Notes: a model not told the origin generated them from the letters alone. Positions 9,001-46,047 are shown, counted from the stretch's first letter. The stretch is 64,000 bases of DNA from an archaeon (GCA_018694115.1 JABHNB010000005.1:374-64373), one strand, 5' to 3'. Numbers and translations: made by a program.

Positions 9001-9866
9001 TGGCATGCATTGAAAAAATATACAGTGTATCGGCACTAATCGGAAACGGTTCATGTAATGCTAATTGTGATTTTTGCGCAGGAAAGTACCTCCGGCCAGA
9101 AGCAGAGGAGAACAAAGATCATTCACGAAGTCTAGAGGCAGCAATTAAACTTTCTGCTCGTTATGGTGGGTGGTCACTATCTTTAACTTCCAGCGGAGAG
9201 CCAACATGTGACCCCGATTCATTAACAAGGGCTCTAGAAGTCTACAAAAAATGCGCGGATCAGGGAGCATACTTCCCCAATGTAAATCTCTTCACAAACG
9301 GTATCTTATTTGCGGACGATAATTTTTGTGATGAATATCTCGATTCTTGGAGAGATTTAGGATTAAATAATGTGGCAATCTCGCTCCATGGAGTTACTGA
9401 AGAAGAACAAGCCAAAGCATATAATTTAGAAAGTTACCCAAGTCTAGAAAAGATTACTGGAAATATTCGGGATCACGGACTCGGAGTTAGGGGAACACTC
9501 CTTCTAAGAAAGGGCGGAGTTGACAGTTCCAAAAAATATCAAGATGCAATACACACACTAATCGATAAAGGGATTGACAACATCACCTCATGGCCTGTAG
9601 GAAATCCAGATGGTTCAAGAAATGAGTTCAGCCCATCAAGATTAGGTCAATTAGGAATAAAAACTTGGCTATGGCGTAACGCCAAGAAATGCCATGGTCA
9701 TGTCTGGGGCGGAGGAGTCTATGACTACAAGGGAAATATCCTGAGGATAACAGATTATGTTACCAAACACGATCCCAAAAAAGATTTCGTAAGACAACTA
9801 GTCGTCTTTCAGGATAGCACTGTAGCTTACTCATGGATAAGGGACGGAGCACTATGTATGAAGTAA
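8979..9866 (+). CDS. small radical SAM enzyme (viperin/MoaA-like core), paralog 1
   Basis: CNANCDFC (CxxxCxxC), SSGEPT and LFTNG motifs. Only ~295 aa with no SPASM domain. Confidence 0.55.
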   Translation: MAGDWILMACIEKIYSVSALIGNGSCNANCDFCAGKYLRPEAEENKDHSRSLEAAIKLSARYGGWSLSLTSSGEPTCDPDSLTRALEVYKKCADQGAYFPNVNLFTNGILFADDNFCDEYLDSWRDLGLNNVAISLHGVTEEEQAKAYNLESYPSLEKITGNIRDHGLGVRGTLLLRKGGVDSSKKYQDAIHTLIDKGIDNITSWPVGNPDGSRNEFSPSRLGQLGIKTWLWRNAKKCHGHVWGGGVYDYKGNILRITDYVTKHDPKKDFVRQLVVFQDSTVAYSWIRDGALCMK

Positions 9867-10687
9867 ACTCACCATCAAGAGAATCAAAAACTCTCGATAG
9901 TCTGTCTCTTTTTATTGGAACTGGCGAATGTAATGCAAACTGTGCACACTGTGCTGGAAGGGCCCATAGAAAATATGCTCCAGAAGAAGATGGTATCCTT
10001 AACGAAGATCTAATTCGTCAAACTCTCGAAGACTGCCACAACCAGGGAGCAAGATATCTTTCTATAAGCAGCAGCGGAGAACCAACACTATCTCCAATCT
10101 CAATTACAAAAGTTCTCAGAATGACCGAAGAAATAAAACACTGTGGAATAAGCTATTCTCCAATAAATCTCTATTCAAATGGGATCCGAATCGGAGAGGA
10201 TCAACAGTTCTGCGATGATCACCTCCAATCCTGGAAGGATCTTGGACTTACAACTGTCTACATCACCGTGCATGATATTAATGAAAAGAAAAACGCAGAA
10301 GTTTATGGCGTAAAAAGCTACCCTCCCCTAGAAAAAGTAATTTCAAGAATCCATAAACCTGGCCTGTTAACAAGAGCAAATCTAGTTCTTAGCAAAAGAA
10401 CAATCCATTCTCCAGAAAAGTTCGCCCAAACAATCAATCATCTTCAAAAAATCGGAGTAGATTCAATCTCGGCCTGGCCAATCCGGGGACAAGATGATAC
10501 CTTGGATCCAAATCTCGCTCCAACCTCCGAAGAACTTGATCAAATGGGGGAATGGATCGGAAAAAGAGATCCCAAAAAAGGCAAAATCGTCCTACTTAGA
10601 GAAAACAGCCGAATCAAGTATAAAAATCGAGAAAAACTGACCTTGTTTCCTGATGGAACCCTATCGAATACTTGGTGTAACTATTAA
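9833..10687 (+). CDS. small radical SAM enzyme, paralog 2 (tandem duplicate of 8979..9866)
   Basis: CNANCAHC, SSGEPT and LYSNG motifs. Collinear similarity to the upstream gene throughout (DSWRDLGLNNVAISLHG vs QSWKDLGLTTVYITVHD). Confidence 0.55.
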   Translation: MDKGRSTMYEVNSPSRESKTLDSLSLFIGTGECNANCAHCAGRAHRKYAPEEDGILNEDLIRQTLEDCHNQGARYLSISSSGEPTLSPISITKVLRMTEEIKHCGISYSPINLYSNGIRIGEDQQFCDDHLQSWKDLGLTTVYITVHDINEKKNAEVYGVKSYPPLEKVISRIHKPGLLTRANLVLSKRTIHSPEKFAQTINHLQKIGVDSISAWPIRGQDDTLDPNLAPTSEELDQMGEWIGKRDPKKGKIVLLRENSRIKYKNREKLTLFPDGTLSNTWCNY

Positions 10688-19280: not shown

Positions 19281-19796
19281 ATGGCAGGCAAGGTTATCCT
19301 CCCACCAAACTATCCCAATGATCCATTAATCTTTCTAGCAGGACCCATTCAAGGCGCCCCAGAATGGCATGATCCCGCAATCAGAATTATTCATGCAAAA
19401 GACTTAGAGATAAATATTGCGTCTCCAAGTCGGAGTGTAAGCGAGGAATATCTGAATCAGAACCTCGCAAAATTCGGAAATAGGTTTCCGGAGCAGGTTG
19501 ACTGGGAGAGTAAACACCTAAGGCAAGCTGCAGATCATGGAGCAATACTTTTCTGGATGCCTAAGGAGAAGACCCATTTTTGCGAAAGGGCGTATGCACA
19601 AACAACTCGTTTTGAATTAGGGGAATGGGCAACAAAGTCCAAATATGGAAAATGTGATCTGGCAGTAGGAATTCAGCCAGGATTCCCTGGAGAAAGCTAT
19701 ATTAGAAGAAGATTACATCAGGATCTTCCAGACTTAAAAATTCACATAACACTAAGAGAAACTTGCTGGGATGCAATTGAAAAAGCAAGAAGTTAG
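19281..19796 (+). CDS. nucleoside 2-deoxyribosyltransferase (NDT)-like protein
   Basis: FLAGPIQG N-terminal motif, ILFWMP, and an ELG acidic motif (RFELGEWAT), as in the NDT/YtoQ Rossmann-like family. Paralogous in pattern to 43536..43985. Confidence 0.5.
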   Translation: MAGKVILPPNYPNDPLIFLAGPIQGAPEWHDPAIRIIHAKDLEINIASPSRSVSEEYLNQNLAKFGNRFPEQVDWESKHLRQAADHGAILFWMPKEKTHFCERAYAQTTRFELGEWATKSKYGKCDLAVGIQPGFPGESYIRRRLHQDLPDLKIHITLRETCWDAIEKARS

Positions 19797-19839
19797 TCCT
19801 TATCGGCAGGGTTATATAGGCAAAGAAATTTGAAAAATT

Positions 19840-20685
19840 ATGAACTTCCCAGAATTAGCAATACTTAAACCTACTTCTAGATGTAATCAAAATTGTAAAT
19901 ATTGCTATGACGTAAAAAATCCTTGCGAAATTTCCTTAGATGAAATAAAGAAAATTATTTCTTATATCTCCCAAAATGGGACAAAATCGGTAATTATTAG
20001 TGGTGGAGAACCTCTTCTTAGGGAAGATATTGGAGAAATAATGGCAGAAATAAAATCTAAAGGTTTAAACGTTTTTTTAGATACAAATGGAGATTTCTTT
20101 CTAGATAGGTTAAATGAAATTGAAAGAAATATCGATATCTTGGGATTGCCCCTAGATGGTCCTTCAGAAGAGTTTTCATATAGGGGGAAGGAAAATTTCC
20201 AAAATGTGATAAAGATACTTGAGCATTATAAATCTAAAAAAGAACGGCCAAAAATTAGAATCGGGACCGTTGTGACAAAAGAAAATATAAATCTTTTGGA
20301 AGATATCGCGAAATTAATAAGAAATTTTGAAATAGACGTGTGGAAAATTTATCAGTTCATGCCTACTGGCCCTCTAGCAACAAAAAATAGGGCTGCTTTG
20401 GAAATTGACGAAAGAAGCTTTCTCGAGGCCATTAAAAATTTAAAAGATAAAAACCTCCAGTTAAACATATTAACTTGTTCCTCAGAAAGTCGCAAGAGAG
20501 CTCATTTTTTTATAGGATCTGACGGAAAAGTATATGTTCCCGAAGACGAGAAGGGAGATTGCAAGATTCTTGGAAGTGTGTTTGAAAAGGGCACAATTGA
20601 AGAATGGAAAAGAATAACGGACCTAAAAAGCTATAAAGAAAATTCCGAAAAAGTTCTTTACCCCCTGTCTTTAGAAGAGCATTAA
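19840..20685 (+). CDS. viperin-like radical SAM enzyme (pVip family candidate)
   Basis: CNQNCKYC and ISGGEPLL motifs. Collinear resemblance to viperin beyond the radical-SAM core: IDILGLPLDGPSEEF vs ILAISCDSFDEE, and DVWKIYQ vs VRWKVFQ. Confidence 0.55.
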   Translation: MNFPELAILKPTSRCNQNCKYCYDVKNPCEISLDEIKKIISYISQNGTKSVIISGGEPLLREDIGEIMAEIKSKGLNVFLDTNGDFFLDRLNEIERNIDILGLPLDGPSEEFSYRGKENFQNVIKILEHYKSKKERPKIRIGTVVTKENINLLEDIAKLIRNFEIDVWKIYQFMPTGPLATKNRAALEIDERSFLEAIKNLKDKNLQLNILTCSSESRKRAHFFIGSDGKVYVPEDEKGDCKILGSVFEKGTIEEWKRITDLKSYKENSEKVLYPLSLEEH

Positions 20686-24919: not shown

Positions 24920-25636
24920 CTAAATCTCACCCTTCAAATAACTCTTCCTTTTCCCCTCTTCAAATCTCTCAATTGCATACCTCAACATTGTTCGGGGCAT
25001 CATCATATATCTTCCGCCTTCTTGTAAAAATTTCTCAAGAACCTTCTGGTTTCTCTTACCAATTTCACGCAACATCCAGCCAACAGCTTTATGGATCAAA
25101 TCATGTCCGTCTTTTAACAATAACTTCGCAATCTTCAATGTATCTCCAAAATCTCCCGCCCGAATAAAAGCAAATGTCGCAAGAATCGCGATTCGCCTTT
25201 CCCATAAATTATCACTCTTAACTAAATCATACAATACTTTCCTCTCTTTCTTCTTATCAAGCAAGTAACCCCCCACAACATATGGTGCAGACAAATCAAC
25301 TATATCCCAATTATTTATTCCCCGAGTATTTCCCAAATAGAAATCATAGATCTTCTTTTTCTCTTGTTCATCAGAGGCACGTTTAAACTTCTCAACCAAA
25401 ATCAAAGATCCCACATTTCTCTCATCATGAATTTCAGAATCCAGCAAACTTTTAACATCCTCAAAACTAGCTTCCTCCCAAAACTTCTTAACAACAGCCC
25501 TCTGCCGAGGCATCATCACCCCTAAAAAAATATCCCCTTCACCATACTGCCCTGGCCCAGTCTTGAAAAATCCTTGGAGGATTTTAGCTTTCTCTGGATT
25601 TGCATACTTCTTCAAGGCATCTTTGACGCTTTTCAT
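24920..25636 (-). CDS. DNA alkylation repair protein (AlkD/AlkC-like HEAT-repeat glycosylase family)
   Basis: The N-terminal pattern (ALKKYANPEKAKILQGFFKTGPGQYGEGDIFLGV) and helical repeat architecture match the DNA_alkylation family. Confidence 0.55.
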   Translation of the reverse strand: MKSVKDALKKYANPEKAKILQGFFKTGPGQYGEGDIFLGVMMPRQRAVVKKFWEEASFEDVKSLLDSEIHDERNVGSLILVEKFKRASDEQEKKKIYDFYLGNTRGINNWDIVDLSAPYVVGGYLLDKKKERKVLYDLVKSDNLWERRIAILATFAFIRAGDFGDTLKIAKLLLKDGHDLIHKAVGWMLREIGKRNQKVLEKFLQEGGRYMMMPRTMLRYAIERFEEGKRKSYLKGEI

Positions 25637-26061
25637 TCTAATCCAAAGAATAATTTAATACAAAGATCTTCATCAAGAACCAAAGGTAGGCCTAATGCAT
25701 CTTCTGGAGAAGCCCATTGAAAATCTTTATGTTCTTCAGATCTAAGATTTATCTCAGGTTTTTCTTCAAACGGAGAATGAAAGATATGATAAACAAAATC
25801 ATAGTCCGGAAGTCTCACAAATATTTTCTTAAAATGATTGGCTTCTGGAAGATTCAATCCTGTTTCTTCCATTACTTCTCTAACAATCGCTTCACCAATA
25901 TTTTCCCCTTCATCAACCTTTCCAGCAGGACATCCCCAAGTTCCTCCCTGTGGCTTATGATCCTGGCGATGAAGAAGTAAAATCTTTCCATCAACTTCAA
26001 CAAAACATCCAACTACTTCAAAAGTAGGTTCAAAATTCTCGGGTTCTTCTTCGTAAATCAT
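25633..26061 (-). CDS. NUDIX hydrolase
   Basis: Nudix box GKVDEGENIGEAIVREVMEETGL. Confidence 0.65.
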   Translation of the reverse strand: MIYEEEPENFEPTFEVVGCFVEVDGKILLLHRQDHKPQGGTWGCPAGKVDEGENIGEAIVREVMEETGLNLPEANHFKKIFVRLPDYDFVYHIFHSPFEEKPEINLRSEEHKDFQWASPEDALGLPLVLDEDLCIKLFFGLE

Positions 26062-35792: not shown

Positions 35793-36326
35793 TCATTCCC
35801 GAACTTGCAGAACCTTATTACTCTGGTAGAAATCTTCCACTGAATTAATATCCCACCAACCAGCTAAATGGGGAACAACGATCAGTTGAGGATCATGAAA
35901 TGGAACTCTGCCGGGGGTGAGAACTTTTCCAAAAGGTTCGGCCTTACTTCTGATCTGAACAAGTTCACTTCCTTCAAACTCCCAACCCCTTCGCACAAAT
36001 ACATTTCTTATTGCAATATCTTGGATATGTGTCGCAACATTATTTTGAATTGAGTAGTCTAAACCAGATTCCCGATCAGATTCATCAATATCATAAACAT
36101 CTAAGGCCGTATCTCTTAATTGGGCCCATAGTGTCTCCCTTCTGATAGAATCCTGTAAATATGATTCCTCAAATAATTTACATACTTCTGGAAATTGAAT
36201 AAATCCCTCGGCATGTTTATGGACAATCCTCCAATTAGACTTGCCATATTCAGAATCATATCCCGCAATTATCTCTGCCTTTTTATCTCCGAAAACTCCG
36301 GGCCTCTCAATATTTTTCCAACCCAT
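35793..36326 (-). CDS. hypothetical protein, tandem paralog A (MGW..IERPG family)
   Basis: Internal start at MGWKNIERPG (the track ORF extends to 36386 and would overlap paralog B). Confidence 0.45.
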   Translation of the reverse strand: MGWKNIERPGVFGDKKAEIIAGYDSEYGKSNWRIVHKHAEGFIQFPEVCKLFEESYLQDSIRRETLWAQLRDTALDVYDIDESDRESGLDYSIQNNVATHIQDIAIRNVFVRRGWEFEGSELVQIRSKAEPFGKVLTPGRVPFHDPQLIVVPHLAGWWDINSVEDFYQSNKVLQVRE

Positions 36327-36327
36327 T

Positions 36328-36882
36328 TTATTTCCAAACCTGAAGAACTTTATTCCTTTGATAGAAATCTTCAATAGTCTTCTCATACCACCAAGTCCCC
36401 TTTCCGCCGTAATCTTTTACTTCTCCAGGAACTATAAGTTCTGGCATATGGAATGGAACAACTCCCGGATTTAGCATCATTCCATCACTCCCTAACCATC
36501 TTATATGCAATAAATCTTCTCCTTGAAATTCCTTTCCAAGTCTTGCCACGGATTTTCTCACGGCAATATCATGAATATGCTTATTTGGTGTTTCTTGGCG
36601 AGTATAATCAAACTTAGACTTAACATTTGAGGTGGCAGTATCATAGACATCTGAATAAGAAGAAACCAGCCATTCCAATATATCCAAATTCTTCTTAAAA
36701 AATTCACAATACCCATCTTCGTAAAGTTGGATTGCAAATTCTCTAGAAACAATCTCATTATTCCATTGATATGTGAGCCTCCAATTATTCTTTCCAAATT
36801 GCTCATTCCAATTACTAACAACCTCGTCTCTCTTTTTTCCAAGATATCCTGGACGCTCAATAGTTTCCCACCCCATAACCAA
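36328..36882 (-). CDS. hypothetical protein, tandem paralog B (MGW..IERPG family)
   Basis: MGWETIERPGYLGKK...GVVPFHMPELIV...FYQRNKVLQVWK, collinear with paralog A. Confidence 0.45.
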   Translation of the reverse strand: MVMGWETIERPGYLGKKRDEVVSNWNEQFGKNNWRLTYQWNNEIVSREFAIQLYEDGYCEFFKKNLDILEWLVSSYSDVYDTATSNVKSKFDYTRQETPNKHIHDIAVRKSVARLGKEFQGEDLLHIRWLGSDGMMLNPGVVPFHMPELIVPGEVKDYGGKGTWWYEKTIEDFYQRNKVLQVWK

Positions 36883-38906: not shown

Positions 38907-40367
38907 TCATCCGGTATGGTGTTCAACTCCCTTAACCAAATGCTCTAAATGGTGGATCTCTCTAACAGCTCCCTGCATTGGATGGAATTCTCTAATCATA
39001 TAGTGTGATGAGAACTTCTTAACATTCCTCACCTCATGTAATTTCCCAAGTCCGAACATCGCGACCAATAATCTTCCGATACCAGAGATAGCAAAGATGA
39101 ACAAAATTGGATTCATAAATGAAATATCAATCCATGCCAATATTGATCCAAGGCTTGCTCCAAGGAACATTCCCACTCCTACCGAGAGATTCATATATGC
39201 CAATCCAAAACTTCGCTTAGGTCCACTCACTGCGTCATAAACATAATTATTCGTTGCAAGCATATATCCTGCCCAAGCAAATCCGCTAACAATGGCAGGT
39301 ACAAAGAGAAGATATAATTTAATCCCCAGATCTGATGAGACGAATGCAGAACCAATCCAAAGCAATGGCGTTGTAATAACTAACCAAGAACAGATTGTCA
39401 TAACCTTAATGTTGCCAAATCTATCGGACATCTTCCCCAATAGTGGAAGGAACATAAGCTGAAATGCAGTTCCTGAAATAGTAATTGCCATGTACCAAAC
39501 ATAAGAGAATCCCAAATCCCGGATCATATAAACTACCCAGAATGGTCCGGCAATTGCAATCGCGAAACTAAATGCTCCTCGGAATAAAACAAATCGTCCG
39601 AAGGCAGTTTGTGGGGCACTTTTCAAGAATTGCCAAAGGGAGAAATAATCCTTCTTTCTAACAATTAATCTTGGTTCATATTGTTTTTTCAATAAAGTCA
39701 ATGACATGATTTTTGTCAAGGCAGAAATCGCGAAAAGCAAACCAAATCCGAGAAGAGTAAACCCTATAACATTCCCCATATTGCTCCCAATCTTCTTGGC
39801 ACCGTCTAGGAATATCGCTCCAAGGATCATGGTAAGAATTCCGCAGAATCCGGTTATACGATTCCTCTTAGAGAAATATCTTCCCCGATTATCTTCGGGA
39901 ACTAACGAACCCATCCAAGAAAACCAAGAGGAATGAGCAACTGCTCCTGCAGCATAGAACAAACCAACGAAAACTATCAGGGTCCAAACCATATGGGGTA
40001 CGCCGAGATAAAATAAAAGTCCAGTTAACATAATTGGGATCCAAAGTAAGATCTTCCAAAGAACCCCAGCCCTAACAATTTTCTTTCTAGGAAATTTCTC
40101 AATTAGCTTAGCAGTCTTTAACTGAACGATACTTGGGAGTAGATTGATAATCGCATGTAAAATCCCTACCTGGCTTGCCGTAGCATTCAATGCTAATGCA
40201 AATGGTGAAAGGTATGACAGTCCCAACCCTGAAGATATGGAAGCATAGGACCCTTCACGAATACTTAACTTCAAACTTTTATCAATCTTTTTAGCAACAA
40301 CTGGATGCTCCGCAGTCAACTTCTCTCGATAAGATTCTACACTCTTTTTTTTCTTGGCTCTTGCCAT
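38907..40367 (-). CDS. MFS-type transporter
   Basis: ~12 TM helices in a two-halves arrangement. Confidence 0.55.
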   Translation of the reverse strand: MARAKKKKSVESYREKLTAEHPVVAKKIDKSLKLSIREGSYASISSGLGLSYLSPFALALNATASQVGILHAIINLLPSIVQLKTAKLIEKFPRKKIVRAGVLWKILLWIPIMLTGLLFYLGVPHMVWTLIVFVGLFYAAGAVAHSSWFSWMGSLVPEDNRGRYFSKRNRITGFCGILTMILGAIFLDGAKKIGSNMGNVIGFTLLGFGLLFAISALTKIMSLTLLKKQYEPRLIVRKKDYFSLWQFLKSAPQTAFGRFVLFRGAFSFAIAIAGPFWVVYMIRDLGFSYVWYMAITISGTAFQLMFLPLLGKMSDRFGNIKVMTICSWLVITTPLLWIGSAFVSSDLGIKLYLLFVPAIVSGFAWAGYMLATNNYVYDAVSGPKRSFGLAYMNLSVGVGMFLGASLGSILAWIDISFMNPILFIFAISGIGRLLVAMFGLGKLHEVRNVKKFSSHYMIREFHPMQGAVREIHHLEHLVKGVEHHTG

Positions 40368-40535
40368 ACTACCTCTTCAATAATCTCTCGCAATAGGAAT
40401 ATAAAAATGTAGCGGATTGGGAAAATTGAACAAATGGTACCCTGTTGCCGAATCTTGTGTATCTTGATCTTAGTGTAAAGAATACATATACTCTATCGCC
40501 ATAATCTTTATATAGTGTACATTATACAATAAGTC

Positions 40536-41267
40536 ATGGATGAATTAAAAAGAGTTCGACCAAGAAATAGGATAGCGAGTGCCATTAGTAATTATGTCCG
40601 AGGCTGGACTACATTCGAAATCTCTTGGCTATTAATTTTCACAATTATCAATATCTATTTATTTATCGCCTGGCAAGATAGTTGGATCGGACTAACCGCT
40701 TCCATTACCGGGATGATCTGTGTAGTTCTAACTGCAAAAGCAAGAATAAGTAGCTTTTATTTTGGATTAGTAAACATTCTCGCATATTCTTATGTGGCCT
40801 TCCAAAGCGCATACTATGGGGACGTAATGTTGAATATGCTTTATTTCCTACCTATGACCTTTGTAGGAATATACTATTGGAGAAGAAATAGAAAGGGAAA
40901 TAAAAAAGATGAAATAGTTGTAAAGAGCTTAGATTGGGAAAGGAGAATCATATGGTTCCTAAGTTCAATCGTCATATTGATTGTCTACGGACTAATCTTA
41001 ACAATAATCAAGGGAACCTTGCCATTCATCGATTCGGCCACAACCGTCTTTTCAGTAATAGCAACGATAATGTTGAATAAGAGACTAACAGAACAGTGGT
41101 TCTATTGGATTGCAGTTGATGTCTTAGCAATAATCATGTGGGCATACATATTCATAACAAGTGGCGGAGATGTGAGTATGCTAGTTATGTGGTCGGCATT
41201 CTTAGTTAATGCAGTCTATGGTTACTTCAATTGGAAGAGATTAGAAAGGAAAAACAATGGAAAATAA
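40536..41267 (+). CDS. pnuC: nicotinamide riboside transporter PnuC
   Basis: ~240 aa, 7-8 TM, W-rich N-terminal helix pattern. Immediately upstream of, and overlapping, nadR. Confidence 0.55.
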   Translation: MDELKRVRPRNRIASAISNYVRGWTTFEISWLLIFTIINIYLFIAWQDSWIGLTASITGMICVVLTAKARISSFYFGLVNILAYSYVAFQSAYYGDVMLNMLYFLPMTFVGIYYWRRNRKGNKKDEIVVKSLDWERRIIWFLSSIVILIVYGLILTIIKGTLPFIDSATTVFSVIATIMLNKRLTEQWFYWIAVDVLAIIMWAYIFITSGGDVSMLVMWSAFLVNAVYGYFNWKRLERKNNGK

Positions 41268-42294
41268 GAAAACCGTCGGTTTCATTGGCGGAAAATTTCT
41301 TCCACTACACCAAGGACATATCTATGTGATCATTGCCGCATCTAATTATGTTGATGAATTATATGTGGTTGTTTCTTCTTCGAAAAACAGAGACCGAGAA
41401 TTATGTGATCGTGAAGGGATAAAATACATTCCTGCAGAGAATCGACTTTCTTGGCTTGGGGAGGCATTGAATAATTTGGAAAACATAAAAATAATTCATA
41501 TCGAGGACGATCAGTGGGAGGATAATTACGATTGGGGCCGGGGTGCGGAGATGATCAAGGAAGCAATCGGAAAACCAATTGATTTTGTTTTCAGTTCTGA
41601 AACCGGGTATGGGGAGTTATTCAAAAAATATTATCCTGATTCAAAACATATTGTTGTGGATGACGAAAGAAAAACAGTAACAACTTCTGCCACAGAACTC
41701 AGAAAAAATCTTTATGACAATTGGGACAAATTACCAAACTGTGTCCGATCACACTTTACAAAGAAAGTTGCAATTGTTGGAACCGAAAGTTGTGGAAAAT
41801 CAACCCTTGCAAAAAAACTTGCGAAGTTTTACAATACTGAATTTGTACATGAAGTTGGAAGAGAATATTGTGAGAAGTTTTCAAATCTTCTAACGCGGGA
41901 AATGTTTGATCAGATTGCTATGGAGCATTCCCTCCTACAATTAAAAAAAGCAGAGACTAGCAATAAAGTTTTGTTTGTAGATAGCGAAGCCACAATAACT
42001 CAATATTATCTGGAGATGTATCTTCCGGGAGAGAGGTCAAAACTAATAGAAGAAATAATTGCATTACAAAATTACGATCTAGTTATTTTTCTTGAGCCAG
42101 ACGTAAAATGGGTTGAAGATGGATTCAGATTCGCAGGAGAAGATGCTCAGAGAATAAAAAACAATGAAAAATTAAAACAGATGTTTCAGGAACGCTGTAT
42201 AAACTTCATTAGCGTTGATGGGAACTACGATGAGAGATTCAATAAATCAAGAGAACTGGTTGACAACCTTTTCAAAAAGGAGAATTTAGAATGA
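41257..42294 (+). CDS. nadR: bifunctional NMN adenylyltransferase / ribosylnicotinamide kinase NadR-like
   Basis: N-terminal cytidylyltransferase motif GGKFLPLHQGHIYVI. C-terminal AAA_28 kinase with Walker A GTESCGKST. Confidence 0.7.
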   Translation: MENKKTVGFIGGKFLPLHQGHIYVIIAASNYVDELYVVVSSSKNRDRELCDREGIKYIPAENRLSWLGEALNNLENIKIIHIEDDQWEDNYDWGRGAEMIKEAIGKPIDFVFSSETGYGELFKKYYPDSKHIVVDDERKTVTTSATELRKNLYDNWDKLPNCVRSHFTKKVAIVGTESCGKSTLAKKLAKFYNTEFVHEVGREYCEKFSNLLTREMFDQIAMEHSLLQLKKAETSNKVLFVDSEATITQYYLEMYLPGERSKLIEEIIALQNYDLVIFLEPDVKWVEDGFRFAGEDAQRIKNNEKLKQMFQERCINFISVDGNYDERFNKSRELVDNLFKKENLE

Positions 42295-43139
42295 TATTAG
42301 AACTAGCAGTCGGAGATGCCTATGGGGCTGGGTTAGAGTACGTTAACAAAGTTCTTGTAAATAAGCTCAATAACCTACAAAGTTATCATCAACATCCAAA
42401 TCACCCAATTGGTGGTGGAAAATACACTGATGATACTCAGATGAGCTTAGCCATAGCCGAACTTCTTGTTGAAGGAACTGAATGGACTCCGCTAAACCTT
42501 GCTAATAAATTTGTTGAAGTTTTCAAAAGAGATCCAAGGCCAGGATATGCTGGCGGATTTTACAAATTTCTACAAGAAGTAGAAACTGGAGAAGAGTTCT
42601 TACAAAAGATTCGTCCTGAAAGCGATAAGAGCGGAGCTGCAATGCGTGCTGGACCTCTAGGCTTTCTTCCAAATATCAAAAAGGTAATAAAATATTCAAC
42701 AATCCAGGCCAGGATAACTCATGATACTCCTCTTGGAATAAATGCTGCAGTTGCGAGTGCTTTAATGCCCTACTATTTTATCAATAATCTAGGAACTAAA
42801 GAAAATTTAGGGAAGTTCATCGAAAATCATGTAGAAGGAAATTGGAATATGCCCTGGACTGGCGAGGTCGGAGAAAAAGGGTATATGTCTGTAAGGGCTG
42901 CAATCACCGCAATCGCCGAAGAAGATTCTCTCTCAAAAATTCTGAAAAGATCGGTAGATTTCGGAGGAGATATCGATACCGTTGCAACAATTGCTATGGC
43001 TGCCGCCGCATGCTCCTCTGAGATCAAACAAGATTTACCCAAAGAACTAATTGAAAATTTAGAAAACGGGACCTATGGAAGAGATTATCTTATTGATTTA
43101 GATAATAAATTAAAAAGAAAGTTTAGAAAAAATGAATGA
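42291..43139 (+). CDS. ADP-ribosylglycohydrolase family protein (DraG/ARH-like)
   Basis: LAVGDAYGAGLEY N-terminal signature. YTDDTQMSLA and C-terminal GGDIDTVATIAMAAAA di-metal ligand motifs. Confidence 0.65.
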   Translation: MILELAVGDAYGAGLEYVNKVLVNKLNNLQSYHQHPNHPIGGGKYTDDTQMSLAIAELLVEGTEWTPLNLANKFVEVFKRDPRPGYAGGFYKFLQEVETGEEFLQKIRPESDKSGAAMRAGPLGFLPNIKKVIKYSTIQARITHDTPLGINAAVASALMPYYFINNLGTKENLGKFIENHVEGNWNMPWTGEVGEKGYMSVRAAITAIAEEDSLSKILKRSVDFGGDIDTVATIAMAAAACSSEIKQDLPKELIENLENGTYGRDYLIDLDNKLKRKFRKNE

Positions 43140-43539
43140 ACTAAGAATCGGTGTTGTAGGATCAGAAGAGAATTTCGATGAAGCAGAAGCTCAAGAAATG
43201 ATTTTAGAAGCATTTGATAAATTAGATCTCCAATGCCCTACAAAAACAAAAATAATCGTTTCTGGATTAACTGACAGGGGAATAAAGGCAATAGCTTATC
43301 GAGAAGCAACAAAAAGAAATTGGGGAACTATGGGCATTGCCTGTTCAAGAGCAAGAGAATACGATTGTTTTCCTGTGGATGAAAAAATAATTGAAGGCAA
43401 TGAATGGGGGGATGAGAGCTCAACATTTCTGGACAACATTGAAGTCCTAATTAGGATCGGAGGAGGGAACCAATCCTTCCGGGAAACTGCTGAAGCAAAA
43501 GCAAGAGGAAAGCAAGTTATGGAGGGAGACTTATCATGA
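43132..43539 (+). CDS. small Rossmann-like SLOG/DprA-LOG-superfamily protein (tentative)
   Basis: IGVVGS..., IVSGLTDRGIKAIAYREA and a C-terminal IGGGNQSFRETAE resembling the LOG/DprA PGGxGTxxE motif. Only 135 aa. Confidence 0.3.
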   Translation: MNELRIGVVGSEENFDEAEAQEMILEAFDKLDLQCPTKTKIIVSGLTDRGIKAIAYREATKRNWGTMGIACSRAREYDCFPVDEKIIEGNEWGDESSTFLDNIEVLIRIGGGNQSFRETAEAKARGKQVMEGDLS

Positions 43540-43985
43540 AATACATTGAAGCTCCAGAGATATATGGTGGAAAAGATAAAAGCTTATTCCTGGCTGGAGG
43601 AATCTCGAACTGTCCAAACTGGCAAGAAGAATTGGCAAATCATCTTAACAACGAAGATCTAGTTTTGCTTAACCCCCGAAGAGCGAATTTCCCGATAAAC
43701 GATTCCTCTGCTGCAGAAAAACAAATCCAATGGGAATTCAATCATCTTAGGAAAGCAACGGCAGTTTCATTCTGGTTTCCAAAAGAAACCCTTTGTCCAA
43801 TAGTTCTGTGTGAGTTGGGGGCTTGGTCTATGACTGACAAACCATTGTTTATCGGAATCGATCCAGAGTACCCGAGAAAGCAAGATGTCGAGATTCAAAC
43901 AAAACTGGCTAGGCCGGATATAAAAATAGTCTATGATCTAAAATCTCTCTCCGAGCAAATAAGGGGCTGGGCGAATAAAGAATAA
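43536..43985 (+). CDS. nucleoside 2-deoxyribosyltransferase (NDT)-like protein, paralog 2
   Basis: FLAGGISN, FWFP and VLCELGAWS (ELG) motifs. Same motif order as 19281..19796. Confidence 0.5.
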   Translation: MKYIEAPEIYGGKDKSLFLAGGISNCPNWQEELANHLNNEDLVLLNPRRANFPINDSSAAEKQIQWEFNHLRKATAVSFWFPKETLCPIVLCELGAWSMTDKPLFIGIDPEYPRKQDVEIQTKLARPDIKIVYDLKSLSEQIRGWANKE

Positions 43986-44038
43986 ATCCTTCCAACTTTC
44001 ATCGTTAATTTTATTAACCTACCTTCTTTCATCAATTA

Positions 44039-45442
44039 ATGGCAAAAAAGTACTATGTCACGACGCCGATATATTATCCAAATGACATCCCCCATATCGG
44101 GCATGCTTACACAACTATAGCGGCAGATGTAATCGCGAGATGGCAAAAGCTTCAAGGAAAAGAAGTATTTTTTCTAACTGGAACAGATGATCATGGAAAG
44201 AAAATTGCACAAGCAGCAGAAAAGGCAAAACTATCTCCAAAAGAATTCACAGACCAATTAATCCCAAAGTTTAAGGATGCATGGAAGAAGCTTAATATTC
44301 AATACGATCGATTCATCAGAACAACAGATCCTGATCATGAAAAAATAGTCCAAGAAATTTTACAGAAAGTCTTTGATAATGGTGATATCTACAAGGGCGA
44401 ATACGAAGGTCTATACTGTACTGGTTGTGAGGCATATTACACTGAGAAAGATCTTGAAGATGGTTGTTGTCCAATTCATAAAACCAAAATAGAAAAACTA
44501 AAAGAAGAAACATATTTTTTCAAGTTATCAAAATATCAGAAACCTCTTCTTGATCTCTACAAAAAAAATCCCACTTTTATTTCCCCAAAGCATAGAAAAC
44601 AAGAGATTATTAATCGTGTTAAGGAAGGTCTGAAGGATTTATCAGTCTCACGAGCAGGTTTTGACTGGGGAGTTCCACTACCTTTTGACAAGGATCACGT
44701 TAGTTATGTCTGGTTTGATGCATTATTCAACTATTATTCCGCAACAAGAGAAAAATCAAAACAAAAGTTCTGGCCAGCAGATGTGCATTTAATCGGAAAA
44801 GATATTCTCTGGTTCCACACAGTTTACTGGCCTGCATTCCTTCTTTCAGCAGGAATAGATATTCCAAAAACAGTTTTTGCTCATGGTTGGTGGACATTTA
44901 ATAACGAAAAAATCTCAAAGTCCCGGGGAAAGGTAATCAATGTTGATGAACTTATTGCAATCGCCGGAGTGGACTCCGCAAGATATTTCTTATTGAGGGA
45001 AGCTTCGTTTGGAGAAGACGGAGATTTTTCAGAAGATGCTCTAATCGAAAGACACAACAACGAACTCGCGAATAAACTTGGAAATCTGGTCTCAAGGACA
45101 AGCGCCTTAGCAGAAAAGTATGGAATAACAAAGACAGATAAAAAACTCTTGAAAAAATTGAAATTAAAAGAGATCGAAAAAAATCTCGAGGAATTCAGAA
45201 CCGACAAAGCACTTAATGAGATCTTTGCATTTATCGATGTCTGCAATGAATACATTCAGGACAAAAAACCTTGGGAAACAAAAGACAAAAAGGTTCTCAA
45301 TGAGCTCGTCGAAGCAATAAGGGAGATAGCAAGACTCCTTTCTCCGTTCATTCCAGAGTCTGCAGAAAAGATATCCGAAATATTCAAATCCGATAATATT
45401 AAAAAAGCTCCAATATTATTTCAAAAGGTTGAGGACAAGTAA
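44039..45442 (+). CDS. metG: methionyl-tRNA synthetase, catalytic core (no appended C-terminal tRNA-binding domain)
   Basis: PHIGHAYT (HIGH) and KISKS motifs. Zn knuckle CTGCEAYY...CCPIH. Confidence 0.8.
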   Translation: MAKKYYVTTPIYYPNDIPHIGHAYTTIAADVIARWQKLQGKEVFFLTGTDDHGKKIAQAAEKAKLSPKEFTDQLIPKFKDAWKKLNIQYDRFIRTTDPDHEKIVQEILQKVFDNGDIYKGEYEGLYCTGCEAYYTEKDLEDGCCPIHKTKIEKLKEETYFFKLSKYQKPLLDLYKKNPTFISPKHRKQEIINRVKEGLKDLSVSRAGFDWGVPLPFDKDHVSYVWFDALFNYYSATREKSKQKFWPADVHLIGKDILWFHTVYWPAFLLSAGIDIPKTVFAHGWWTFNNEKISKSRGKVINVDELIAIAGVDSARYFLLREASFGEDGDFSEDALIERHNNELANKLGNLVSRTSALAEKYGITKTDKKLLKKLKLKEIEKNLEEFRTDKALNEIFAFIDVCNEYIQDKKPWETKDKKVLNELVEAIREIARLLSPFIPESAEKISEIFKSDNIKKAPILFQKVEDK

Positions 45443-45443
45443 A

Positions 45444-45707
45444 ATGACACGTATGACAAAATATAGGAAGCAGATAGATAAGATAAACAACAAAATCTTA
45501 AAGCTTTTATCAAAAAGAATGAAAGTTTCTGAGAAAATTGGAGAGTGTAAGAAAGTAAGAAATGCCCCAATAAGGGATGAAAAAAGAGAAAAGGAATTAC
45601 TCAACATGATCTCAAAACAAGCCAAGAAACACAAACTAGATGAAAAGTTTATAGAAGATGTTTTCCAGATAATTCTAAGTGAATCCCGGAGGAAACAAGA
45701 AAAATAA
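45444..45707 (+). CDS. aroQ: chorismate mutase, AroQ class (monofunctional, ~88 aa)
   Basis: RKQIDKINNKILKLLSKRMKVSEKIGECK...APIRDEKREKELL is nearly collinear with archaeal AroQ chorismate mutases. The track start at 45429 is a TTG; the ATG at 45444 is more likely. Confidence 0.6.
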   Translation: MTRMTKYRKQIDKINNKILKLLSKRMKVSEKIGECKKVRNAPIRDEKREKELLNMISKQAKKHKLDEKFIEDVFQIILSESRRKQEK

Positions 45708-45708
45708 A

Positions 45709-46047
45709 ATGGCAGAAGGAATAATTGAATATGGCGATTTTGAAAAAATGGATTTAAGAGTCGCAGAAGTAGAAAATGTCGAAGAGATTGAGGGTGCAGA
45801 CAAGCTTTACAAATTAACAGTCAGCATCGGAGAAGAAGTAAGAACAATCTGTGCAGGAATAAAAGAACATTATAGCAGAGAAGATCTCAAGGGTAAAAAG
45901 ATAATCGTTCTAACAAACCTTGCTCCAAGAACTCTTAGGGGAGTAGAATCTCAAGGAATGCTTCTTGCAGCATCAAACAAAGACCATTCAAAAATTTCCT
46001 TAATTTCCCCCGACCAAGATATGGATCCTGGCGATAGTGTTAGTTAA
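45709..46047 (+). CDS. stand-alone tRNA-binding domain protein (Trbp111/EMAP-II-like; usual MetRS C-terminal module)
   Basis: DLRVAEVENVEEIEGADKLYKLTVSIGEE...VLTNLAPRTLRGVESQGMLLAA is the classic OB-fold tRNA-binding domain. Internal start MAEGII. Confidence 0.65.
   Translation: MAEGIIEYGDFEKMDLRVAEVENVEEIEGADKLYKLTVSIGEEVRTICAGIKEHYSREDLKGKKIIVLTNLAPRTLRGVESQGMLLAASNKDHSKISLISPDQDMDPGDSVS

What the first reader, a model, noticed from the sequence alone, without database searches (positions are those of the whole stretch)
40536..43985. NAD/ADP-ribose-centric five-gene cluster: PnuC, NadR, ADP-ribosylglycohydrolase, SLOG-like, NDT-like
Five co-directional genes with overlapping stops and starts (41257/41267, 42291/42294, 43132/43139, 43536/43539), which implies translational coupling. 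PnuC plus NadR is the classic nicotinamide-riboside salvage pair. The appended ADP-ribosylglycohydrolase, small SLOG-superfamily Rossmann protein and NDT-like protein are all domains that comparative-genomics studies link to NAD- or ADP-ribose-derived nucleotide processing in conflict and signalling systems. In a tiny genome that probably cannot make NAD de novo, this could be an extended salvage route that recycles ADP-ribose or NAD breakdown products. Alternatively it could be an NAD-replenishing counter-defence or signalling module.
Basis: partly seen in the sequence, partly recalled or inferred. Interest (0 to 1): 0.65.

Follow-up and report, generated by a model that had tools for sequence, protein, structure and literature searches.

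The report
Archaeal NAD salvage operon with ADP-ribose-processing triad
A small archaeon has one operon joining the well-known nicotinamide-riboside uptake and NAD-synthesis pair (PnuC, NadR) to three uncharacterised enzymes that recur next to NAD genes in related archaea and giant phages, and next to NAD-cleaving TIR genes in bacteria, so they are probably unassigned steps of NAD recycling.

Summary
Five co-directional ORFs sit at exactly the stated coordinates with 11, 4, 8 and 4-nt overlaps. All five domain calls hold: PnuC, HTH-less NadR, ARH with an intact metal site, SLOG (by structure) and a PF15891 NDT-like protein with an invariant catalytic Glu.

The exact five-gene order occurs only in this species. 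The nearest relative keeps ARH-SLOG-NDT at the same site, upstream of MetRS, but lacks pnuC-nadR.

The NAD link of the three extra genes is strong by association:
- NAD genes (NadK, NadD, NadE, PncA, PnuC-NadR, Nudix, NrtR, ARH) lie within 6 kb of the NDT-like gene in 21 of 30 archaeal loci.
- In jumbo phages the NDT-like gene follows PncA inside PncB/NMNAT/NadE/Nudix clusters.
- It is fused to Nudix in one locus and to an ADP-ribosyltransferase in another, and neighbours TIR genes in bacteria.
- SLOG replaces NDT between the same flanking genes (NadK-[NDT|SLOG]-NadD).
- ARH sits directly upstream of pnuC-nadR in another DPANN archaeon.

My best reading is an NR-salvage operon extended by a module that processes NAD breakdown products by glycosidic-bond cleavage. 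The substrates are unknown. A counter-defence role is not excluded. I rate it a new variant of a known kind, interest about 0.6.

The parts
40505..40513 (+). TATA-like box (cTTTATATA) about 25 nt upstream of the pnuC ATG. I infer it is the archaeal promoter of a leaderless transcript.
   Evidence: Sequence read. No SD-like motif precedes pnuC, whereas the internal genes have GGAG motifs. This is inference only.
40508..40529 (.). Imperfect 22-nt palindrome TTATATAgTGTACAtTATAcAA overlapping the TATA box. It could be an operator.
   Evidence: It is unique in the window, and nothing similar was found in 26 related archaeal loci, so its role is unproven.
40536..41267 (+). pnuC, a nicotinamide riboside transporter (243 aa).
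   Evidence: PF04973 at 7.6e-48. TIGR01528 equivalog 144.5 bits against a cutoff of 42.45. It is 60-74% identical to PnuC in 8 DPANN loci.
41257..42294 (+). nadR without the HTH domain: NMN adenylyltransferase plus ribosylnicotinamide kinase (345 aa).
   Evidence: NF005988 scores 236.8 bits against a cutoff of 201, using model positions 61-409. AAA_28 at 8.5e-32. HQGH lies at residue 18 and Walker A at 175.
42291..43139 (+). ADP-ribosylglycohydrolase family protein (282 aa), belonging to neither the DraG nor the Tri1 equivalog.
   Evidence: PF03747 at 4.6e-32. TDDT and DIDT metal-site motifs are present. Closest solved relatives are ARH3 at 2e-17 and DraG at 3e-10. The subfamily is 60-74% identical across DPANN archaea, cyanobacteria and Chloroflexota.
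43132..43539 (+). Stand-alone SLOG-fold protein (135 aa; SLOG cluster-4-like).
   Evidence: Pfam hits are sub-threshold. The AF2 model has pLDDT 96.8, and the Foldseek top hits are MCP, TM1055, LOG and TRPM2 MHR1/2. Conserved motifs are SGLT, WGDES and GGGxQSxxE. The family has 113 clusters.
43536..43985 (+). NDT-like (PF15891, DrHyd superfamily) protein (149 aa).
   Evidence: PF15891 scores 64.6 bits against 30. The AF2 model has pLDDT 92. Best folds are 4mcj at TM 0.81, then NDT, YtoQ and DNPH1. The Glu in the (Y/C)ELG motif is invariant. More than 1,400 homologs, many at 56-79% identity across domains of life.
44008..44016 (+). T-rich TTTTATTAA element in the 53-nt gap before MetRS. I infer it marks the end of the operon and the promoter of the next gene.
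   Evidence: Sequence read. This is inference only.

Best explanation
This is one archaeal operon devoted to NAD homeostasis.

Shown by homology:
- PnuC imports nicotinamide riboside.
- The HTH-less NadR phosphorylates it to NMN and adenylylates NMN to NAD.

Inferred from context, fold and motifs: the three downstream genes form a module that processes molecules left when NAD is consumed or degraded.
- The ARH, whose binuclear metal site is intact, frees ADP-ribose from 1''-linked conjugates. Candidate substrates are O-acetyl-ADP-ribose, ADP-ribosylated targets and ribose-ribose-linked forms.
- The SLOG-fold and NDT-like proteins both belong to the TIR-DrHyd-SLOG clade, whose active members cleave or exchange N-glycosidic bonds. 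I propose they cleave (or base-exchange) the N-glycosidic bond of an NAD-derived nucleotide or nucleoside, returning the base and ribose phosphate to metabolism.

My preferred specific guess, held at low confidence, is that the NDT-like enzyme releases nicotinamide from NMN or NR. It would do this by hydrolysis or by nicotinamide/nicotinate exchange, and would feed PncA where that enzyme is present. SLOG and NDT seem able to fill the same slot in related clusters, so they probably catalyse related reactions.
For: PnuC and NadR are identified above curated cut-offs, and all catalytic motifs are intact.

Operon evidence:
- The overlaps, the leaderless first gene and the SD-like motifs fit an operon.
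- The ARH-SLOG-NDT triad, with its overlaps, is kept at the syntenic site in the nearest relative.
- Flanking genes are housekeeping and GC content is unremarkable, so this is not a defence island.

NDT-like gene:
- NAD genes lie within 6 kb in 21 of 30 archaeal loci, in many different gene orders: NadK-like, NadD, NadE, PncA, PnuC-NadR, AdpP-type Nudix, NrtR, ARH and NADAR.
- It is immediately adjacent to PncA in archaeal loci L015 and L024. In 9 jumbo-phage loci PncA lies just upstream of it, directly adjacent or with one small ORF between; most of these also carry PncB, NMNAT, NadE or Nudix. The cultured phage Phosso has the same cluster.
- It also occurs with NadV, Prs and NADAR in other phage loci.
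- It is fused to Nudix in L076 and to ART-PolyVal in Tunturi_5 gp225.
- The order is ARH-NADAR-NDT in a Saprospiraceae locus.

SLOG-like gene:
- It lies among NadK, NadD, NrtR, PncA and NadE in L088, L090, L093, L121 and L161.
- There is an in-situ swap: L046 has NadK-NDT-NadD while L090 has NadK-SLOG-NadD, with orthologous flanks.
- A different ARH lies directly upstream of SLOG in 6 further loci.

ARH:
- The same subfamily lies directly upstream of pnuC-nadR in L260, inside a 13-gene NAD cluster that has an IU nucleoside hydrolase instead of NDT or SLOG.
- It is adjacent to a Nudix in Allocoleopsis.

Fold precedents: DNPH1 and NDT for the NDT-like protein, and AMP-bound LOG and the ADPR-binding MHR1/2 domain of TRPM2 for SLOG. 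CD38 performs NMN base exchange (title of PMC11903787), and PMC9503650 places the ADP-ribosyl cyclases in the DrHyd superfamily.
Against: - No activity is measured, and every functional step for ARH, SLOG and NDT rests on guilt by association.
- The exact five-gene order is unique to this species. The nearest relative lacks pnuC-nadR at this site.
- The SLOG-like gene never occurs next to pnuC-nadR elsewhere.
- In bacteria the NDT-like gene is almost never near NAD biosynthesis genes (1 of 51 loci). It sits instead next to TIR proteins or a 2-TM + ThsB-TIR candidate defence pair.
- A nicotinamide-releasing NMN hydrolase would be futile beside NadV, which makes NMN. That weakens the specific substrate guess.
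- No PncA, PncB, NadE, NadK or NrtR gene lies in the 64-kb window, so any downstream use of released nicotinamide in this organism is unknown.
- Many of the archaeal loci are related to one another, so the counts are not independent events.
Confidence: 0.55

Rival explanations
1. Conflict or counter-defence module. ARH, SLOG and NDT would degrade or sequester NAD-derived immune signals or toxins, such as cyclic ADPR isomers and other ADPR derivatives made by TIR or other NADases. PnuC-NadR would refill NAD, as phage NARP3 does. In an episymbiotic DPANN archaeon this would protect against a host's or competitor's NAD-targeting immunity, or tune its own.
For: - PnuC plus an HTH-less NadR is exactly the phage NARP3 counter-defence pair (PMC13464706).
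- Both the NDT-like and SLOG-like families are frequent on viral contigs, including jumbo phages.
- The NDT-like domain is fused to an ART in a polyvalent protein next to the portal gene.
- The NDT-like gene sits next to TIR_2 proteins in 14 cyanobacterial loci, and next to a PDC-M50A (2-TM) + PDC-M50B (ThsB-like TIR) pair in Poribacteria and Deltaproteobacteria.
- The SLOG-like gene abuts SLATT + ThsB_TIR in a Thermosipho prophage.
- PMC9503650 predicts that viral SLOG domains degrade cADPr-type signals.
Against: - The window's operon lies among core housekeeping genes, with normal GC content and no mobile-element or defence genes nearby. It is syntenic in a relative at about 80% identity.
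- In archaea its partners are biosynthetic and regulatory NAD genes (NadK, NadD, NadE, NrtR), not sensors or effectors.
- None of the three proteins matches any PADLOC model.
- No TIR or other NADase was noticed near the operon.
Confidence: 0.25
2. General nucleoside or nucleotide salvage, unrelated to NAD. The NDT-like and SLOG proteins would swap or remove ordinary purine or pyrimidine bases to supply bases and ribose phosphate in a genome lacking de novo nucleotide synthesis, much as DNPH1, NDT, LOG and PpnN do. Their position beside pnuC-nadR would reflect only a shared 'scavenging' theme.
For: - The nearest characterised folds are NDT, DNPH1, YtoQ and AMP-bound LOG.
- L260 has an IU nucleoside hydrolase in the corresponding cluster.
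- The NDT-Nudix fusion could couple AMP release to AMP cleavage.
- The window has other nucleotide-type genes: an AAA_28 kinase, a CYTH protein and a second NDT-like gene.
Against: - The recurrent neighbours are specifically NAD genes, NrtR, PncA, TIR, ART, NADAR and ARH. No purine or pyrimidine salvage gene appeared among the recurrent neighbour families that were annotated.
- Identity of 56-69% across archaea and bacteria argues for one precise substrate that is conserved everywhere.
Confidence: 0.12
3. Fortuitous juxtaposition. pnuC-nadR was inserted next to an unrelated ARH-SLOG-NDT operon, with no functional connection between them.
For: The sister genome has the triad without pnuC-nadR at the same site. 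The five-gene order is unique to this species.
Against: - The genes overlap (NadR stop and ARH start share ATGA), so they are transcribed and probably translated together.
- Each triad member is independently linked to pnuC-nadR or to other NAD genes elsewhere, in different gene orders.
Confidence: 0.05

Closest known systems
PnuC-NadR nicotinamide-riboside salvage (known from Haemophilus influenzae and Lactococcus lactis, from my own knowledge) and phage NARP3 (PMC13464706)
   Same: A PnuC-type transporter lies adjacent to a bifunctional RNK/NMNAT NadR that lacks the HTH domain. Both proteins score above curated family cut-offs.
   Different: Here the pair is chromosomal in a DPANN-type archaeon, not a phage. 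It is translationally linked to three further genes (ARH, SLOG, NDT-like) that are not part of NARP3 or of classical pnuC-nadR loci.
NrtR-controlled NAD regulons (Nudix-related regulator that senses ADP-ribose; from my own knowledge of Rodionov et al. 2008)
   Same: In related DPANN genomes the NDT-like, SLOG-like and ARH genes lie in clusters with an NrtR homolog (NUDIX + NrtR_WHD), NadD, NadE, PncA, NadK and PnuC-NadR.
   Different: No NrtR gene or recognisable shared operator is present in this window. ARH, SLOG cluster-4 and PF15891 proteins are not described members of NrtR regulons as far as I could find.
Viral ADPr-processing networks of Macro, NADAR, SLOG, Nudix and ARG domains (Iyer, Burroughs and Aravind 2022, PMC9503650)
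   Same: The same domain superfamilies are combined in neighbourhoods and fusions. That paper predicts that SLOG attacks 1'-ribosyl N-glycosidic bonds of ADPr derivatives, and it describes NADAR next to NadV/NadM salvage genes.
   Different: That survey reports only ARC-type DrHyd domains in viruses. It does not describe PF15891 NDT-like proteins in NAD salvage clusters, and it does not mention nicotinamidase or PncA. The present locus is cellular and archaeal, and is built around NR uptake.
Nucleotide N-glycosidases DNPH1/Rcl, NDT, LOG and PpnN, and CD38-type base exchange
   Same: The folds match: an NDT/DNPH1-like fold with a Glu in a YELG-type motif, and a LOG-like SLOG fold. Cleavage or exchange of an N-glycosidic bond is the expected chemistry. 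CD38 exchanges nicotinamide for nicotinate on NMN (PMC11903787).
   Different: Sequence identity is only 10-23% to any solved protein. The only close structure (4mcj) is uncharacterised. The substrate is unknown, and the context points to NAD-derived rather than canonical nucleotides.
TIR + 2-TM (SLATT-like) candidate defence pairs (PADLOC PDC-M50; ThsB-type TIR)
   Same: In bacteria the NDT-like gene, and in a Thermosipho prophage the SLOG-like gene, directly neighbour such pairs.
   Different: No TIR or 2-TM partner is present near the window's operon. The three proteins match no PADLOC model.

Membership tests
PnuC nicotinamide riboside transporter | Sequence match to PF04973 and the TIGR01528 equivalog above curated cut-offs | tested here: met
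   PF04973 scores 163.2 bits against 27.3. TIGR01528 scores 144.5 bits against 42.45.
PnuC nicotinamide riboside transporter | NR-binding pocket residues and transport of NR rather than thiamine, riboflavin or deoxynucleosides | not tested
   Pocket residues were not mapped. Specificity is inferred from the equivalog hit and from genetic coupling to NadR.
NadR (bifunctional NMNAT / ribosylnicotinamide kinase) | N-terminal HxGH nucleotidyltransferase domain plus C-terminal P-loop RNK domain | tested here: met
   HQGH at residue 18 and GTESCGKS at 175. AAA_28 at 8.5e-32. NF005988 scores 236.8 bits against 201.
NadR (bifunctional NMNAT / ribosylnicotinamide kinase) | N-terminal HTH repressor domain of enterobacterial NadR | tested here: not met
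   The alignment to NF005988 starts at model position 61 with protein residue 2. This matches the HTH-less form seen in phage Bas30_86.
Phage NARP3 | Adjacent PnuC-type transporter and HTH-less NadR | tested here: met
Phage NARP3 | Encoded by a phage and counteracts NAD-depleting defence | tested here: not met
   The locus is flanked by archaeal housekeeping genes (L15e, MetRS, NAC, Sec61beta, SerRS, DNA ligase) on contigs of 179-385 kb. Counter-defence activity cannot be tested here.
ADP-ribosylglycohydrolase (PF03747) | Family HMM above cut-off and binuclear metal-binding motifs (T-D-D-T and D-x-D-T) | tested here: met
   112.3 bits against 26.2. TDDT at residue 46 and DIDT at 227.
DraG / Tri1 (arginine-specific ARH equivalogs) | Score above the TIGR02662 or NF041672 cut-off | tested here: not met
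   59.5 bits against 337, and 29.7 bits against 490. By phmmer the closest solved relative is ARH3, at 2e-17.
SLOG superfamily | Sequence match to a SLOG Pfam family above the gathering score | tested here: inconclusive
   LDcluster4 scores 21.0 bits against 26.3 and LSDAT_prok 20.5 against 25.4. Many homologs carry a precomputed PF18306 hit.
SLOG superfamily | Rossmannoid SLOG fold with a Gly-rich loop followed by a conserved Glu (GGxG[ST]xxE-like) | tested here: met
   The AF2 model has pLDDT 96.8. Foldseek probability is 1.0 to MCP 2iz5, TM1055, LOG 3sbx/5zbl and TRPM2 MHR1/2. GGGNQSFRE lies at residue 110, and its Glu (E118) is invariant.
LOG (cytokinin riboside 5'-monophosphate phosphoribohydrolase) | PGGxGTxxE motif and phosphoribohydrolase activity | not testable with these tools
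   The motif is only similar (GGGxQSxxE), and no LOG family HMM was hit. Activity is unknown.
NDT-like / DrHyd (PF15891 Nuc_deoxyri_tr2) | Family HMM above cut-off, NDT/DNPH1 fold, and a conserved Glu at the end of the fourth strand | tested here: met
   64.6 bits against 30. TM-score 0.81 to 4mcj and 0.60-0.68 to CtNDT, YtoQ and DNPH1. E93 in the (Y/C)ELG motif is invariant in 18 sequences.
Canonical nucleoside 2'-deoxyribosyltransferase (PF05014, deoxynucleoside base exchange) | Membership of PF05014 and deoxyribosyl transfer activity | tested here: not met
   There is no PF05014 hit, and identity to solved NDTs is only 10-16%. Activity cannot be tested here.
NrtR regulon | An NrtR gene or NrtR operator associated with the locus | tested here: not met
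   tblastn with DPANN NrtR sequences found none in the 64-kb window. The palindrome upstream of pnuC is not shared with the relatives' loci. NrtR is present in the clusters of 16 related archaeal loci.
Known or candidate anti-phage defence systems (PADLOC) | Match of ARH, SLOG or NDT-like to any PADLOC model | tested here: not met
   No hits at E <= 0.1.

The most novel reading that the evidence does not exclude
The PF15891 NDT-like protein and the SLOG cluster-4 protein are two interchangeable, previously unassigned enzymes of the pyridine-nucleotide cycle. They might be the orphan NMN nucleosidase, or an NMN/NR nicotinamide-nicotinate base-exchange enzyme. Alternatively they could be hydrolases of TIR-made ADPR derivatives. 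Together with a dedicated ARH, they would form a recycling module that is shared by horizontal transfer between DPANN archaea, jumbo phages, cyanobacteria and Chloroflexota. In phages the same module would serve to rebuild NAD during infection.
Probability: 0.3. Interest if true: 0.75.

Novelty: new variant of a known kind. Interest (0 to 1): 0.6.

Why it matters
- The NR-salvage half of the operon is textbook biology, and as NARP3 it is newly topical in phage counter-defence.
- The other half consists of three protein families with no assigned function. They are unusually well conserved, at roughly 60% identity between archaea and bacteria.
- These families appear repeatedly wherever NAD is made, regulated or destroyed: DPANN NAD superclusters with NrtR, jumbo-phage Preiss-Handler and NadV clusters, TIR neighbourhoods, and Nudix and ART fusions.
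- Assigning their reactions would add steps to the NAD cycle, possibly including long-orphan activities.
- It would also explain how genome-reduced symbionts and large phages recycle NAD breakdown products, and could reveal new enzymes that act on TIR-derived signals.
- The locus offers a compact, testable five-gene set for that work.

Tried and rejected
- **NDT-like as a PncB replacement.** I considered that the NDT-like enzyme might be a PRPP-independent substitute for nicotinate phosphoribosyltransferase. I rejected this because the phage clusters carry bona fide PncB (441.6 bits against a cutoff of 379) or NadV plus Prs alongside it, and L260 has PncB.
- **Several NDT paralogs per locus.** This was a single-linkage artefact. 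The 142-158-aa members are small Nudix proteins and the ~220-aa members are NrtR. They were merged with NDT through the L076 NDT-Nudix fusion.
- **Riboswitch upstream of pnuC.** An Rfam search at E <= 1 over 40000-44200 found nothing.
- **Conserved operator.** The TGTACA-centred palindrome is unique to this locus and was not found in 26 related loci.
- **Bacterial-type promoter and terminator scan.** It found no more sites than shuffled sequence gives, and it is not suited to archaea.
- **Further domain fusions among longer homologs.** Only short, unrecognisable extensions were found.
- **Literature searches.** Searches for PF15891/Nuc_deoxyri_tr2 and for PnuC+NadR+ARH returned no papers. A YtoQ/DNPH1 search failed on term syntax.
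- **First metagenome scan with the broad SLOG alignment.** It failed for lack of a conserved stretch and was repeated with a narrower alignment.

Full report
**1. The observation**

The five ORFs exist exactly as described: 40536-41267, 41257-42294, 42291-43139, 43132-43539 and 43536-43985. All are on the + strand, with overlaps of 11, 4, 8 and 4 nt.

The same gene calls appear on independent assemblies of the same organism, on contigs of 158, 179 and 385 kb. NCBI names the organism only 'archaeon', with locus tags HOA55_. The flanks are archaeal housekeeping genes: ribosomal protein L15e, thioredoxin, an MFS transporter, MetRS, a MinD-like ATPase, NAC, Sec61beta, SerRS and DNA ligase. GC content is uniform at 0.36-0.40.

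A TATA-like box lies about 25 nt upstream of the pnuC ATG, and pnuC has no SD motif. nadR, ARH and NDT are each preceded by GGAG-type motifs. This pattern fits an archaeal operon with a leaderless first gene. A 53-nt T-rich gap with another TATA-like element separates NDT from MetRS.

**2. Identities of the five proteins**

- **PnuC:** PF04973 at 7.6e-48, and the TIGR01528 equivalog well above its cut-off.
- **NadR:** the NF005988 equivalog scores above its cut-off, but aligned only from model position 61, so the HTH domain is missing. HQGH and Walker A motifs are present.
- **ARH:** PF03747 at 4.6e-32 with TDDT and DIDT metal-site motifs. It falls far below the DraG and Tri1 equivalog cut-offs. 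The nearest solved relative is ARH3.
- **SLOG-like (135 aa):** it has only sub-threshold SLOG Pfam hits. An AlphaFold model at pLDDT 96.8 matches Moco-carrier proteins, TM1055, AMP-bound LOGs and the ADPR-binding MHR1/2 domain of TRPM2 at probability 1.0. It carries the conserved SGLT, WGDES and GGGxQSxxE motifs.
- **NDT-like (149 aa):** it is PF15891. The model (pLDDT 92) matches the uncharacterised 4mcj best, then Chroococcidiopsis NDT, YtoQ and DNPH1. The Glu in a (Y/C)ELG motif is invariant.

**3. Is the gene order conserved?**

The exact five-gene order occurs only in this species.

The nearest relative has proteins about 80% identical and comes from the same JGI sample. It keeps ARH(282)-SLOG(135)-NDT(148) with the same 8-nt and 4-nt overlaps, immediately upstream of the syntenic MetRS block. 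Upstream of the triad it has a PK-barrel protein, a radical-SAM protein and two unknown ORFs instead of pnuC-nadR. A further radical-SAM gene follows NDT. The triad is thus the stable unit, and pnuC-nadR is a variable partner.

**4. Context of the NDT-like gene in 80 genomes**

The protein is 56-69% identical across DPANN archaea, cyanobacteria, Chloroflexota, Poribacteria and other phyla.

*Archaea.* In 21 of 30 archaeal loci it lies within 6 kb of NAD-metabolism genes, in many different orders. The genes are:
- a divergent NAD kinase, usually immediately upstream;
- NadD and NadE;
- a PncA-like isochorismatase;
- PnuC-NadR (8 loci besides this one);
- an AdpP-type Nudix and a small Nudix;
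- ARH and NADAR;
- a NadB-like flavoprotein;
- NrtR (NUDIX + NrtR_WHD, 2.7e-19).

In L076 the NDT-like domain is fused to the small Nudix.

*Bacteria.* NAD biosynthesis genes are almost absent (1 of 51 loci). That one locus is a Saprospiraceae locus with the order ARH(45% identical)-NADAR-NDT.

The recurring bacterial neighbours are of two kinds:
- a TIR_2 protein plus an unknown 169-aa protein, in heterocystous cyanobacteria (14-17 loci);
- a 2-TM protein matching PADLOC PDC-M50A (12 loci across three phyla). In at least 5 of these loci it is accompanied by PDC-M50B, a ThsB-like TIR.

**5. Context of the NDT-like gene in viruses**

72 viral contigs carry it, many of them 200-530 kb long.
- In 9 loci a PncA-like gene lies just upstream, either directly adjacent or with one small ORF between. 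Eight of these fall in the PncA cluster. Most sit within blocks that also hold PncB (441.6 bits against a cutoff of 379), a NadM-type NMNAT, a Nudix and NadE.
- Other loci combine it with NadV (535.9 bits against 405), a Prs-like kinase and NADAR.
- The cultured jumbo phage Phosso has NadE, PncB, Nudix, NMNAT, PncA, a hypothetical gene and NDT in one co-directional block. It carries a SLOG-like gene elsewhere in its genome.
- In Tunturiibacter phage Tunturi_5 the NDT-like domain is the N-terminus of a 1,262-aa polyvalent protein that also holds an ART-PolyVal ADP-ribosyltransferase, next to the portal gene.

Because genuine PRTases are present in these clusters, I rejected my interim idea that the NDT-like enzyme replaces PncB.

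**6. Context of the SLOG-like and ARH genes**

*SLOG-like family* (113 clusters):
- It lies among NadK-like, NadD, NadE, PncA and NrtR genes in L088, L090, L093, L121 and L161.
- L046 reads NadK-NDT-NadD...MTase-NrtR, while L090 reads NadK-SLOG-NadD-MTase. The flanks are orthologous (NadD 49% identical, MTase 65%). This is an in-situ swap of NDT for SLOG.
- A different ARH, 22-24% identical to the window's, sits directly upstream of SLOG in 6 phage-like loci.
- In a Thermosipho prophage the SLOG-like gene abuts a SLATT + ThsB_TIR pair.
- 19 viral contigs carry it, including Bacillus phage G.

*The window's ARH subfamily:*
- It shows the same distribution as the NDT-like protein, at 60-74% identity across DPANN archaea, cyanobacteria and Chloroflexota.
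- In DPANN locus L260 it lies directly upstream of pnuC-nadR. The cluster there reads PncB-PncA-PncA-NMNAT-NadE-Nudix-NMNAT-IU nucleoside hydrolase-ARH-PnuC-NadR-NadB-NadK.
- L260 has no NDT-like or SLOG-like gene. This suggests an interchangeable 'N-glycosidase slot' in these clusters.
- In Allocoleopsis it follows a Nudix gene.

**7. Interpretation**

*Shown:* an NR uptake and activation pair, identified by homology above curated thresholds, is co-transcribed (by inference from the overlaps) with three enzymes whose catalytic motifs are intact.

*Strongly inferred:* the three enzymes work on NAD or on NAD-derived molecules. The NAD links are of independent kinds:
- archaeal biosynthetic and NrtR clusters;
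- phage salvage clusters;
- Nudix and ART fusions;
- TIR neighbourhoods;
- ARH, NADAR and Nudix partners.

*Inferred chemistry:*
- For ARH: hydrolysis of 1''-linked ADP-ribose conjugates.
- For SLOG and NDT: N-glycosidic cleavage or base exchange. These are members of the TIR-DrHyd-SLOG clade (PMC9503650).

*Weakly inferred:* the NDT-like enzyme liberates or exchanges nicotinamide on NMN or NR.
- In favour: its adjacency to PncA in both archaea and phages, the Nudix fusion, and the precedent of CD38 NMN base exchange (title of PMC11903787).
- Against: its co-occurrence with NadV, where cleaving NMN would be futile.

An alternative is ribose-phosphate or adenine release from AMP or ADPR. Another is cleavage of TIR-made cyclic ADPR isomers. 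That second option fits the bacterial and prophage TIR contexts and cannot be excluded.

The housekeeping setting, the synteny and the biosynthetic partners in archaea make me favour homeostasis and recycling over dedicated counter-defence for this locus. The two readings may be the same enzymology used for different ends.

**8. Comparison with what is known**

PnuC-NadR salvage is classical. The same HTH-less pair was reported in August 2026 as the phage counter-defence pathway NARP3 (PMC13464706). That paper does not mention ARH, SLOG or NDT-type genes.

The 2022 survey of viral NAD-ADPr systems describes SLOG, NADAR, Nudix and ARG networks. It states that viruses carry only ARC-type DrHyd domains. 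The PF15891 family in NAD salvage clusters therefore appears to be undescribed there. Full-text searches for the Pfam name returned nothing.

I class the locus as a new variant of a known kind: an NR-salvage operon extended by an uncharacterised module for processing NAD breakdown products.

**9. Limits**

- No activity data exist for the three extra enzymes.
- Only 64 kb of the genome is visible, so dependence on salvage is untested. tblastn with the relatives' NadE, NadK, PncA, NadB and NrtR sequences found none of these in the window.
- Many of the archaeal loci are related to one another, so the counts overstate independence.
- DNA of the nearest relative's contig was not retrievable.

Noticed in passing
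window 19281-20685 (+): A second, diverged PF15891 NDT-like ORF (171 aa, 1.3e-8) is immediately followed by a radical-SAM gene (281 aa). NDT-like followed by rSAM also occurs in the nearest relative's contig and in L070 and L075.
   Followed up: partly
window 7490-10687 (+): A co-directional block holds a stand-alone NadR-type AAA_28 kinase (177 aa, 2.8e-32), a CYTH-domain protein, an unknown 188-aa ORF and two tandem radical-SAM genes. The two rSAM genes are 25-28% identical to the MoaA-like rSAM that recurs in DPANN NAD superclusters. This may be a second nucleotide or NAD-related module.
   Followed up: partly
window 25633-26061 (-): A small stand-alone Nudix hydrolase (142 aa, PF00293 at 1.1e-20), weakly similar to the small Nudix of the DPANN NAD clusters.
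   Followed up: no
window 40508-40529: A 22-nt imperfect palindrome, TTATATAgTGTACAtTATAcAA, overlaps the presumed TATA box of the operon. It is unique in the window and was not found in 26 related archaeal loci.
   Followed up: yes
window 44039-46047 (+): MetRS appears to be split. The catalytic and anticodon-binding core (467 aa) and a separate 122-aa tRNA_bind (Trbp111-like) protein are separated by a small CM_2 chorismate-mutase-like ORF.
   Followed up: no
window 35793-36882 (-): Two adjacent paralogous ORFs (197 and 184 aa) with no Pfam match share motifs such as GWxxIERPG and NKVLQV.
   Followed up: no
L032, L047, L076, L260 (DPANN NAD superclusters): A NadB-like aspartate oxidase is present, but no NadA or NadC was recognised among the annotated recurrent neighbour families. 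Conserved genes of unknown role also recur: a MoaA-like rSAM, an aminotransferase-like protein, DUF1152, a GAPDH-like protein, a PK-barrel-like protein and an NMNAT-like/methyltransferase fusion. This could point to an alternative route to quinolinate or a modified pyridine nucleotide.
   Followed up: no
L040, L059, L072, L074, L082 (Poribacteria, Deltaproteobacteria); L085/L086 (Thermosipho prophage): These loci show a parallel architecture. The NDT-like gene neighbours a 2-TM (PDC-M50A) + ThsB-like TIR (PDC-M50B) pair, and the SLOG-like gene neighbours SLATT + ThsB_TIR. This suggests that PDC-M50-type systems have an unrecognised third component, or an associated enzyme that turns over their signal.
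   Followed up: partly
L017, L022, L023, L026, L029 and others (Calothrix/Nostoc): A conserved 169-aa protein with no Pfam or PADLOC match always sits immediately upstream of the NDT-like gene, usually downstream of a large TIR_2 protein.
   Followed up: no
L262 4989-8777 (Tunturiibacter phage Tunturi_5 gp225): A 1,262-aa polyvalent protein next to the portal gene combines an N-terminal PF15891 NDT-like domain with an ART-PolyVal ADP-ribosyltransferase. About 880 residues remain unassigned. GenBank annotates it only as MutT/NUDIX hydrolase.
   Followed up: partly
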